This document shows, in pieces, positions 21,001 through 24,000 of a stretch of DNA of 42,406 bases. Every line of letters starts with the position of its first letter. Position 1 is the stretch's first letter. The DNA is from a virus (lineage: Duplodnaviria; Heunggongvirae; Uroviricota; Caudoviricetes). The DNA lies in the IMG/VR virus record IMGVR_UViG_2534682160_000015, positions 1 through 42,406 of that record. One strand, 5' to 3'. Made by a program: the position numbers.

Positions 21001-24000
21001 TAAAGCCTGTCAGCCAGCGCGTAATAGAATTGCGCTCGCTTATTGCGGAACACATCACCAATAGTGCGAACGTTGTCGCCCTGTACGACTTCATCAGCCC
21101 ATGCTCCGGCCTGATACGGTGCATCTTCATCGAATGGCGATTCGCTGCCCTTGAACATCGTGGCGGTGATTTTCTTGCCGGAGAACGCTTCCGTTGTCTG
21201 TCTGCGTAGCCCGGCACCAACACCATCACCATCCCACAGGTAATGGTCAGCGCCGTCTTCAATCGCCAGCGAAGTAGCCCAGTCAGCGCCCTCGTTGATG
21301 TCCATCAGCAGACCTTCGGCAATACGCTTAACTACCGAACCGTGACGCGATGCATAACCTTTGGCATCCGGCCCTGTATCTGATGGGTCATGCGCAGAGA
21401 CAACAGCGCCTTTCGCTTTCCATCCGAGTTTCTTGTGCGCATCGGTTGCGGCTTCAAGCCATTCACGTTTGATGATTGCCATATCACTTGCGCTTACCGG
21501 CTCACCAAGCCAGATGTGACGATACAGTGTCGGGTTTCTGCGTTTACACTCTTCCATCTCCAGACGGAGAACTTCAGGAAAGTGCGGGTTGTCGGTGTAG
21601 TTCACCGTCAGCAGACAAATATCATCGGGAGGGTTTACTACGAATCGCTGATAGGTATCGTCGAGGATGTTTTTCGGGTTGAAGCTCACCCATATTTCGG
21701 AAAATGGCTTGCGGATGGTTGGTATCAGGATATCCCATGATTCCTTCGTTACCGCTTCCGCTTCCTCCACCCAGCAGATATCAATGCCTTCGAGCGATTT
21801 AATCTTCGTCGGGTTGTTTTTGATGCCGTAGAACATGAACTCAGCATTCGTTCCGAGATGACGAATCATGGAACGCTGAATTTCAAACTCAGCCGAATAC
21901 CATTCCCGCTCGATAGTGTCTTCAAGCAACCGGATTACCGAATCACTGATACTGTTTTGCAGTTCACGAGCGCAGAGAATACGCACTGGCTGCCGACGCG
22001 CCGCTTCAACAAGCAGCCTCGCAATTGCCCATGACTTACCGCTACCTCGACCGCCTTTGGCGACTTTGTAGCGATGCGCCTCAATGAACGGTTCAAAGAT
22101 AGGATTAATCGAGGTCATTTTCCGAATAGAGTGCTCATCGGTGATGTTTCAATCTGAATTGCGCCGCCGTCTTTGCCTGTTAGTTCGTGAGAAGCTTGTT
22201 CTTTAAACGCCTGAACAGAAACATGCTTACCAAGAAGTTCGAGGTTTTTAACCTTATCAGGCCATTTGATTTTCTTCAGAAGTGCGGCGCTATCTGCGGA
22301 TACCATCTCCACGACATCCATTCCTGATAGCGTTGTGCGCCATACCTTAGGCCAGTCTTTAATTGGCTTTAACTCGCCGTTTTGCAGGAGAATGTCGAGC
22401 ACATCCATCTGGTCGATTTCAATAAGGCGATTAAGTACATATTCTGCATTAATACCAACAAGATCATTGCGTTGCGCTTTCAGTTCGGAGATTCTTAACT
22501 TGATATCAGGTTTTGACAGGTTTTCGGATGCGGTACGGTTAGCTGTCTTTGCGCTGTACCCCGCCCGAATAGCCGCTTGCGTGGCATTTAAATCGATGAG
22601 GTACTCGCGACAGAACATTTCTTGTTTGTCGGTGAGTGCCATTTTTTACTTCCCATAAGGAGATTGTTATGAACGATGACTTTAAAACAGGTGACATTGT
22701 TAAACTGAAATCAGGCGGACCTGACATGACTATCAGGTCATTTTCATCTACCCACGGTAACTCTTTTCTTTGTCAATGGTTTGCTGGCAAGAAGCTTGAG
22801 CAAGGATATTTCAAACCGGAATCTCTTGAGCGCGTTACCCCAAAGCCATAGTCCCAAACACACCAACCTTAACTCTTGATGATATTTCATCATGGATGAT
22901 GTCCGTTTTATCAACAGAGGGTTGCCTTTATCAGCAGGATGTTGTGGATTATCTCGTTAAACAACATAACGAGCAGCACCTCAAAGAAAATGCGGATGGC
23001 AACCAAGCGCTATCAACAAAAGTGATTAATAAATTCAGGGTTGATAGCGGTGAAAGTGTTGTTTGGGTTAAGCCAGATAAGTACTGGCGTTTCCGTGTGC
23101 CTGAAGACGAAAACGGTCGTGAAGCTCGCGGTTAAACTAATCAACGATAAAAGGCAGCATGTTGAGTGCTGCCATATTCATCTCACTTATTTGTTATTTC
23201 AGGTTGAGCATCATGCTCCGGTAGTGAACAGGTCTAACGCTTCCTTCGATTTACGCACCGCTTCGATAGTTCGGGTCGTGATATCTGAATTAGCGCCACC
23301 TGACTGGAAGTGAATTTTGAATAGCTCAAGCTTCAGCTCGTCAGTGCCAATGAATTGAAATGCTTCTTCTGCGGCTGCGTTCTGGTTCATGACCAGTTTG
23401 TAAATCTCTAACTGGAATTTCTGTTCTTCAGTCATGGGAATAATCTCTGCCATTGTTGGCTCCGTTTATCCGTTAAAAGGGATATCAGTTAAGTTATCCC
23501 GTGTAGGGTATAAGCCATTGCCGAGACCACTCATTGAATGGCCTCTGCAATAACCGATGTCTTTCCATCAGTCCGCCACCACAAAGAATCTTTTTTGCCA
23601 TAAGGCAGGAGGTTCATCTTTCAGTGGCTGCCAGTGTTATTTCCCCCACTTACTGGCTTGGGTTGTTTCGTGGTACTGCCGTTAACTGGTGGCCCAGAAT
23701 AAATTCCGGTTTCATTATCAAGCCCACCCGTAAATGGGCTTTGTAATGGCTACTTCACTTTTGCTTTTGCTTTTGCTTTTGCTTCCGCTCGCTTACGCCG
23801 GCGCTCTTCTTTCCTCTCGGCTTTTGCCATGTCCATGAATGCCTGCATGATCGAGTTCCGCATCATGTAGCTAACAAAGTGATGATTGACACAGCCGTTG
23901 AGGCGCAGCTGCTCGCCAAACTCATCCACCGAGGCCAATGCTTCCATCATGCCCTTCTCGCCTTTCATGAACTCTGAGAAGTCGCGCCCCGCTCTGGAGG

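What the first reader, a model, noticed from the sequence alone, without database searches (positions are those of the whole stretch)
23757..23786. Tandem hexanucleotide repeat encoding an (Ala-Lys)n tail
About 4.5 copies of GCTTTT on the plus strand encode KAKAKAKAK at the C-terminus of gene 23750-24025. A 6-nt unit keeps the frame, so copy-number change would alter tail length rather than switch the gene off.
Basis: seen in the sequence. Interest (0 to 1): 0.35.

Follow-up and report, generated by a model that had tools for sequence, protein, structure and literature searches.

The report
Variable Ala-Lys repeat in phage protein tail
A short 6-base repeat at the end of a small prophage gene really does gain and lose copies among related E. 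coli prophages, lengthening or shortening a lysine-rich protein tail without breaking the gene, but it looks like an ordinary coding microsatellite rather than a regulatory switch.

Summary
A perfect 27-nt period-6 tract (23758-23784; (GCAAAA)4 on the coding minus strand) ends the 91-aa CDS 23750-24025. The tail reads ...RRRKRAEAKAKAKAKVK*, not exactly KAKAKAKAK. It is the only such tract in the window, and 0 of 500 shuffles reach its length.

Public data contain an in-frame allelic series with an identical protein core, n = 1 to 6 and 9. Copy number differs on flanks that are identical over 950 bp, so slippage is recurrent and faster than point substitution. A sister allele with an interrupted repeat (GCAAAA GCGAAG) is essentially invariant. 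A divergent Enterobacter-type lineage expanded the same unit independently.

The gene (phrog_875; HK620 hkbL, HK97 gp61) has no known function. It is predicted to form three helices, and the polybasic tail continues the last one. In every locus examined it is the tightly coupled distal gene of a two-gene unit, behind a Bro-network protein (KilA-N+ORF11CD3, KilA-N+P63C, Rha, Rha+ANT). The end of the tail varies in length and sequence across the family.

Best reading: a near-neutral coding microsatellite in a weakly constrained basic tail. Interest is low.

The parts
23758..23784 (-). Hexanucleotide microsatellite, (GCAAAA)4 plus a partial unit on the coding strand. It encodes AKAKAKAK. The pure units are at 23759-23782.
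   Evidence: TRF period 6, 4.5 copies, 100%; sequence read; allelic series n = 1-9 in homologues.
23750..24025 (-). CDS for a 91-aa small phage protein (phrog_875; homologue of HK620 hkbL and HK97 gp61). Predicted as three helices.
   Evidence: ORF; phrog_875 E = 3.9e-54 over the full profile; 138 homologues in Enterobacteriaceae; AlphaFold2 pLDDT 91.8, helices 3-20, 26-42 and 48-90.
23753..23827 (-). Region coding the polybasic C-terminal tail (residues 67-91, AKAERKEERRRKRAEAKAKAKAKVK, net charge +9). KEERRRKR is conserved; the last 4-20 residues vary in length and sequence across the family.
   Evidence: Alignment A1; tails listed; charge table.
24022..24519 (-). Upstream partner gene, KilA-N + ORF11CD3 (Bro-network protein, 165 aa). 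Its stop overlaps the small gene's start (ATGA).
   Evidence: Pfam KilA-N 1.3e-15 and ORF11CD3 2.4e-13; junction sequence; present directly upstream in 103 of 111 loci, with KilA-N+P63C in the other 8.
23720..23741 (-). Hairpin 9 nt after the stop codon: 9-bp stem, UACG loop, no U-run. It occupies the position where divergent homologues carry a classical intrinsic terminator. The mosaic breakpoint lies just beyond it.
   Evidence: RNA fold; conservation up to GATAATG followed by divergence; classical terminators in L126, L129 and L130.

Best explanation
The tract is a coding microsatellite. (GCAAAA)n expands and contracts by replication slippage, and because the unit is two codons every change stays in frame. 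Each unit adds or removes one Ala-Lys pair, one positive charge and about half a helical turn at the very end of a small cytoplasmic phage protein. That end continues a long C-terminal polybasic helix whose last residues are under little constraint beyond being basic, so the length alleles (n = 1-9) persist as near-neutral polymorphism. The protein is the distal, translationally coupled gene of a two-gene unit headed by a Bro-network (KilA-N/Rha antirepressor-like) protein. I infer that it is an accessory partner of that protein and that its basic tail makes non-specific electrostatic contacts, most likely with nucleic acid. Shown here: the repeat, the in-frame allelic series, recurrent change on identical flanks, the variable family tails and the gene linkage. 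Inferred: the slippage mechanism, neutrality, the partner role and nucleic-acid binding.
For: A perfect tract far beyond chance. An in-frame allelic series on an identical protein core, n = 1-5 on 46/856/922/295/92 contigs, with n = 6 and n = 9 intact in IMG/VR. One 950-bp-identical haplotype carries n = 4, 5, 5, 6, 9 and another carries 3, 3, 4, 4. At least 5 copy-number changes sit on flanks with zero substitutions over 750 bp. The interrupted allele GCAAAA-GCGAAG has one form in 92 of 93 loci, which is the classical dependence of slippage on repeat purity. The same unit expanded independently in a lineage with 88% protein identity (GTAAAA(GCAAAA)3GCGAAA). Family tails after KEERRRKR differ freely: AKAK, TKAKAK, SKTK, KKKG, LAKK, EEKKK, QKKITKPT. 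AlphaFold2 puts the tail in helix 48-90, with confidence falling to 58 at the end. The small gene directly follows KilA-N+ORF11CD3, KilA-N+P63C, pRha or pRha+ANT genes, by ATGA overlap or a 2-nt spacer, in at least three genomic settings. Distant relatives fuse its N-terminal module to T5orf172/MUG113.
Against: No reads or mutation-rate data were available, so hypermutability is inferred from comparative data only. Neutrality is not demonstrated. The unimodal distribution peaking at n = 2-3 fits mutational bias, but it would also fit weak stabilising selection. The function of the protein is unknown: there is no Pfam, NCBIfam, PADLOC or PDB sequence match and no structural neighbour. The roles proposed for the tail and the partnership therefore rest on context alone.
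Confidence: 0.7

Rival explanations
1. An adaptive 'tuning knob'. The in-frame repeat would be maintained because reversible changes in tail length and charge (+6 to +14) adjust the activity of the small protein, and through it the Bro-network/antirepressor-like partner. Phage populations would then hold heritable, rapidly interconverting variants.
For: Recurrent change on identical haplotypes. Two lineages expanded the same unit independently. Each unit adds one positive charge to a tail that is conserved as basic. Five alleles are each common rather than one dominating.
Against: The copy numbers are low (mostly 2-4), below what established contingency loci usually carry (own knowledge). The commonest allele in the family, AKAK on at least 1000 contigs, is the non-mutable interrupted form. 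Other genera do without any repeat. No phenotype is known for the gene.
Confidence: 0.12
2. The tract acts at the RNA or DNA level, for example as an A-rich 3' element affecting termination, mRNA stability or recombination at the module boundary. On this view the peptide is incidental.
For: It lies 9-40 nt upstream of a conserved hairpin and a mosaic breakpoint.
Against: The repeat is predicted to be essentially unpaired and not part of the hairpin. The breakpoint lies after the hairpin, not in the repeat. Homologues without the repeat keep the same terminator arrangement. All observed length changes preserve the reading frame, which fits a coding constraint.
Confidence: 0.04
3. An assembly or sequencing artefact, or the real product being the antisense ORF 23734-23838(+) that reads the repeat as poly-Leu.
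For: Short repeats can be mis-assembled. The antisense ORF begins with a signal-peptide-like MGFVMATSLLLLLLLLLPLAYAG.
Against: The tract (24-54 nt) is shorter than a read. Each allele recurs on tens to hundreds of independent contigs, including complete genomes. The minus-strand protein is conserved across genera and folds confidently. The antisense ORF is 34 aa and has no support.
Confidence: 0.02

Closest known systems
Coding simple-sequence repeats (in-frame microsatellites/VNTRs) in bacterial and phage genes, such as those used as MLVA typing loci
   Same: A perfect short tandem unit, a stepwise allelic series, variation on otherwise identical flanks, and loss of mutability when the repeat is interrupted.
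   Different: I found no record of this particular locus in the searchable literature. Copy numbers are low (1-9).
Phase-variable contingency loci (Haemophilus/Neisseria type)
   Same: A slippage-prone repeat inside a coding region of an accessory gene.
   Different: The unit is a multiple of three, so there is no ON/OFF frameshift switching. The protein has no signal peptide or membrane segment and is not a surface determinant. The tract is shorter than typical contingency tracts (own knowledge).
Ala/Lys-rich basic tails of nucleoid proteins (histone H1-like tails: Chlamydia Hc1, Pseudomonas AlgP, mycobacterial HupB C-terminus)
   Same: A low-complexity Ala-Lys composition with high positive charge, plausibly for non-specific nucleic-acid binding. 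This resemblance rests on own knowledge only.
   Different: No sequence homology detected (Pfam and PDB searches negative). The tail here is 4-20 residues, not tens to hundreds, and DNA binding is untested.
Bro-network / antirepressor-like phage proteins (KilA-N, Bro-N, Rha, ANT, P63C, ORF11CD3, T5orf172)
   Same: The small gene is always tightly coupled to such a gene, and its N-terminal module is fused to T5orf172 in distant relatives. The network is listed in PMC10111431.
   Different: The small protein matches none of the named domains. It is a separate, unnamed helical module (phrog_875).

Membership tests
Coding microsatellite / VNTR | Perfect head-to-tail copies of a short (1-9 nt) unit, beyond chance | tested here: met
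   TRF 4.5 copies at 100%; 0 of 500 shuffles reach this length.
Coding microsatellite / VNTR | Copy-number polymorphism in whole units among otherwise identical sequences | tested here: met
   n = 1-6 and 9; n = 4, 5, 5, 6, 9 and 3, 3, 4, 4 on flanks identical over 950 bp.
Coding microsatellite / VNTR | Mutability depends on repeat purity | tested here: met
   The interrupted GCAAAA-GCGAAG allele is uniform in 92 of 93 loci, whereas pure-repeat alleles vary.
Coding microsatellite / VNTR | Length heterogeneity within a clonal population or its reads | not testable with these tools
   No read data available.
Phase-variable contingency locus | A change in repeat number switches expression on/off (frameshift or promoter spacing) | tested here: not met
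   The unit is 6 nt. Every allele in the n series (n = 1-6 and 9) keeps the frame and the VK* ending.
Phase-variable contingency locus | The gene encodes a surface or host-interaction determinant | tested here: inconclusive
   No hydrophobic segment or signal peptide in the sequence, and the model is three soluble helices. The function is unknown.
Phase-variable contingency locus | Measured high switching rate | not testable with these tools
   Needs fluctuation assays or deep sequencing.
phrog_875 (HK620 hkbL / HK97 gp61 family) | Full-length profile match | tested here: met
   E = 3.9e-54, residues 1-85 against profile 1-85/85; tblastn finds 56 phage records with a match (40 listed), among them HK620 hkbL, HK022 and HK97.
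Bro-network two-gene cassette (proposed here) | Small gene immediately downstream of, and coupled to, a KilA-N/Rha-type gene and followed by a terminator | tested here: met
   111 of 111 loci with sufficient flank, plus L125, L126, L129 and L130. The terminator is classical in L126, L129 and L130; in the window the hairpin lacks a U-run.
Anti-phage defence systems (PADLOC) | Profile match to a known defence protein | tested here: not met
   No hit for the small protein. The KilA-N protein has only a short local hit to candidate PDC-S22.

The most novel reading that the evidence does not exclude
The (AK)n tract could be an evolved in-frame tuning device in temperate phages. Rapid, reversible changes in the charge and length of the polybasic tail would modulate how strongly this small protein helps (or restrains) its coupled Bro-network/antirepressor-like partner. 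That would diversify induction or cross-talk behaviour among co-resident prophages, and phrog_875 would be a new standalone module of the Bro network.
Probability: 0.08. Interest if true: 0.55.

Novelty: new member of a known kind. Interest (0 to 1): 0.2.

Why it matters
As it stands, the practical value is modest. The locus is a clean, fast-evolving length marker that could help discriminate closely related lambdoid/P22-like prophages in E. coli, and it is a textbook case of microsatellite birth and purity-dependent instability inside a phage gene. The more useful by-product concerns phrog_875, an uncharacterised family present in HK97, HK022, HK620 and Stx-converting phages. In every locus examined it is the coupled downstream partner of KilA-N/Rha-type proteins, which gives a concrete starting hypothesis for its function. 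If tail length proved to tune that function, it would be a rare example of in-frame repeat 'tuning' in a phage regulatory module.

Tried and rejected
(1) Function by homology. Pfam, NCBIfam, PADLOC and the PDB sequence search gave nothing for the small protein. An exhaustive profile search of 1.8 billion representatives found only 22 relatives.

(2) Function by fold. The model is confident, but Foldseek against PDB and BFVD gave only generic helical-bundle matches, all with E > 0.1.

(3) A metal site (C8, C45, H48, H49). These residues are nearly invariant in the close family but are not kept in the distant T5orf172-fused relatives, so I did not pursue it.

(4) The repeat as the mosaic recombination junction. 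The truncated BLAST hits suggested this. I rejected it because the truncation comes from the 18-nt gap, and the real breakpoint lies after the downstream hairpin.

(5) Literature. Full-text searches for the repeat sequence, hkbL and ORF11CD3 found nothing on this locus. A second search failed on a term-length error.

(6) A substitution-versus-slippage count on a minimum spanning tree. It is inflated by mosaic flanks (347 substitutions), so I rely only on the zero-substitution comparisons.

(7) I did not try to count alleles across all 5,426 complete E. coli genomes, because the BLAST tables cannot report repeat number for more than 60 rows.

Full report
**1. The observation**

The plus strand at 23758-23784 is a perfect period-6 tract of 4.5 copies (TRF score 54, 100% matches). 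By direct reading the pure units TTTTGC x4 are at 23759-23782. On the minus strand this is (GCAAAA)4, inside the ORF 23750-24025, which encodes 91 aa.

The C-terminus is ...KEERRRKRAE-AKAKAKAK-VK*. The substance is correct.

The tract is not a chance feature:
- It is the only perfect period-6 tract of at least 18 nt in the window.
- None of 500 shuffles reached 27 nt (the longest seen was 18).
- The analytic expectation is about 2e-8.

**2. Context**

The window is a P22-like (CUS-3/HK620-type) prophage of E. coli. On the minus strand the gene order is:
- holin
- lysozyme (25153-25629)
- Rz (24719-25156)
- a KilA-N+ORF11CD3 gene (24022-24519)
- the 91-aa gene
- DUF2560 (23211-23453)
- small terminase (22115-22642), followed by large terminase, portal and so on

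The 91-aa gene's ATG overlaps the stop of the KilA-N gene (ATGA). A 9-bp hairpin with a UACG loop lies at 23720-23741, 9 nt after the stop codon. The repeat itself is predicted to be essentially unpaired in the RNA.

**3. Copy-number variation**

Megablast against 5,426 complete E. coli genomes finds the region in 1,480 of them. Three annotated alleles differ only in the repeat:

| Protein length | Accession | Repeat |
|---|---|---|
| 91 aa | WP_001283922 | n = 4 |
| 87 aa | WP_001283920 | n = 2 |
| 85 aa | WP_001283921 (e.g. O157:H7 EC4115) | GCAAAA GCGAAG |

I then looked up hypothetical alleles by exact sequence among about 15 billion proteins, keeping the same 81-aa core:

| Tail | Contigs |
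|---|---|
| (AK)1VK | 46 |
| (AK)2VK | 856 |
| (AK)3VK | 922 |
| (AK)4VK (the window's allele) | 295 |
| (AK)5VK | 92 |
| (AK)6VK | absent |
| AKAKAK | 5 |
| AKAKAKAK | absent |

By design the pattern could not match the n = 1 VK allele. Together with the window and the five E. coli genome loci, this gave 125 matched sites:
- 92 with the interrupted GCAAAA-GCGAA(G/A) allele
- 1 with AKAKAK
- 32 'VK' alleles: n = 2 (10), 3 (11), 4 (6), 5 (3), 6 (1, L065) and 9 (1, L123)

Both extreme alleles are intact ORFs.

**4. Recurrence**

Among the VK alleles, one haplotype identical over 900 bp upstream plus 50 bp downstream carries n = 4, 5, 5, 6, 9. Another carries n = 3, 3, 4, 4. At least five copy-number changes therefore sit on flanks with zero substitutions. 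The tract mutates faster than about 1 kb of flank acquires a single substitution.

The interrupted allele is practically invariant, which is the expected dependence on repeat purity. A lineage with 88% protein identity (P0005, L125) carries GTAAAA (GCAAAA)3 GCGAAA TAG. That is an independent expansion of the same unit with different bordering codons.

Taken together, this fits replication slippage well. The mechanism itself is inferred, not observed.

**5. The protein**

The protein matches phrog_875 (unknown function) over the full profile, E = 3.9e-54. It has no Pfam, NCBIfam, PADLOC or PDB sequence match.

Homologues are confined to Enterobacterales prophages and phages, including HK620 (hkbL), HK022, HK97, the mEp phages and Stx-converting phages. 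They are always annotated as hypothetical. An exhaustive profile search of 1.84 billion representatives gave only 22 hits.

AlphaFold2 on a 30-sequence alignment gives a confident model (pLDDT 91.8) with helices 3-20, 26-42 and 48-90. The basic stretch and the AK repeat continue the last helix, and confidence drops to 58 at the end. Foldseek found no meaningful neighbour in PDB or BFVD.

In the alignment, residues 1-66 and KEERRRKR are conserved. The final residues vary freely in length and sequence: AKAK, TKAKAK, SKTK, KKKG, LAKK, EEKKK, QKKITKPT. The tail's net charge rises by +1 per unit, from +6 at n = 1 to +14 at n = 9.

**6. Gene linkage**

This is the only functional lead.
- All 111 loci with enough upstream sequence have a KilA-N gene directly upstream: KilA-N+ORF11CD3 in 103 and KilA-N+P63C in 8, including HK97.
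- More divergent members sit elsewhere in their genomes. Some lie in a P22 immI-like arc/ant region next to the tailspike (L126, L129), another in a tail-gene region (L130).
- Even there, the small gene directly follows a Phage_pRha, pRha+ANT or KilA-N+P63C gene, with an ATGA overlap or a 2-nt spacer, and is followed by an intrinsic terminator.
- Two distant relatives fuse the N-terminal module to a T5orf172/MUG113 domain.

All of these partners belong to the domain-shuffling 'Bro network' as listed in PMC10111431. I infer that the small protein is an accessory partner of such antirepressor-like proteins, and that its polybasic helix provides non-specific electrostatic binding, probably to nucleic acid. 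None of this has been tested.

**7. Verdict**

The most economical explanation is an ordinary in-frame microsatellite drifting in a weakly constrained basic tail (confidence about 0.7).

It is not a phase-variation switch, because the frame is always kept. The commonest allele in nature is the non-mutable interrupted form, and other genera lack the repeat altogether. An adaptive 'tuning knob' reading is not excluded (about 0.1), but no evidence requires it.

Novelty: a new member of a known kind. Interest: low (0.2). The linkage of phrog_875 to Bro-network genes is a small, useful by-product.

Noticed in passing
L038 7078-7396 (phage HK97 reference genome): HK97's copy of the small gene (HK97p61) is frameshifted after ...VSYM by a 1-nt deletion. 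Seven near-identical relatives with the same KilA-N+P63C neighbour have it intact. This is either a pseudogene or an old sequencing error in the reference.
   Followed up: partly
window 26179-26334 (-): Two phage-borne tRNA genes, tRNA-Thr(tgt) and tRNA-Asn(gtt), lie upstream of the holin in the late region.
   Followed up: no
window 24641-24687 (-): Two terminator-like hairpins lie between the Rz stop (24719) and the KilA-N start (24519). One is GCCTCGC-gat-GCGGGGC followed by TTTTT at about 24666-24687 (read by eye). The other is at 24658-24641. No sigma-70 consensus promoter was found on that strand. This punctuation suggests that the KilA-N + small-gene pair is a moron-like insert.
   Followed up: partly
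window 22636-23135 (+): A pair of small genes, DUF2158 (71 aa) and DUF6953 (79 aa), lies on the opposite strand to the late operon, between small terminase and DUF2560. It may be a separately expressed accessory module.
   Followed up: no
window 23734-23838 (+): An antisense ORF reads the repeat as poly-Leu (MGFVMATSLLLLLLLLLPLAYAG...), which looks like a signal peptide. It is 34 aa with no support and is probably spurious, though its length would also change with repeat number.
   Followed up: no
window 31530-31635: A cluster of tandem repeats (14-nt x2.6, 7-nt x4.1, 24-nt x2.0) lies inside or next to the ORF 31169-31837(-). These may be iterons of the phage replication origin.
   Followed up: no
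P0146, P0150 (distant relatives, not in the window): The N-terminal helical module of phrog_875 (about 60 aa) occurs fused to T5orf172/MUG113 (GIY-YIG-like) domains. This suggests it is an unnamed domain of the Bro/KilA-N shuffling network.
   Followed up: partly
P0003, P0034, P0052, P0068 (homologues): A few database homologues have tails that run into unrelated sequence after the basic stretch or within the AK region (e.g. ...AEAKADQQRTEE......AEAKEVAITEALH). These are rare frameshift or read-through variants near the A-rich tract.
   Followed up: no
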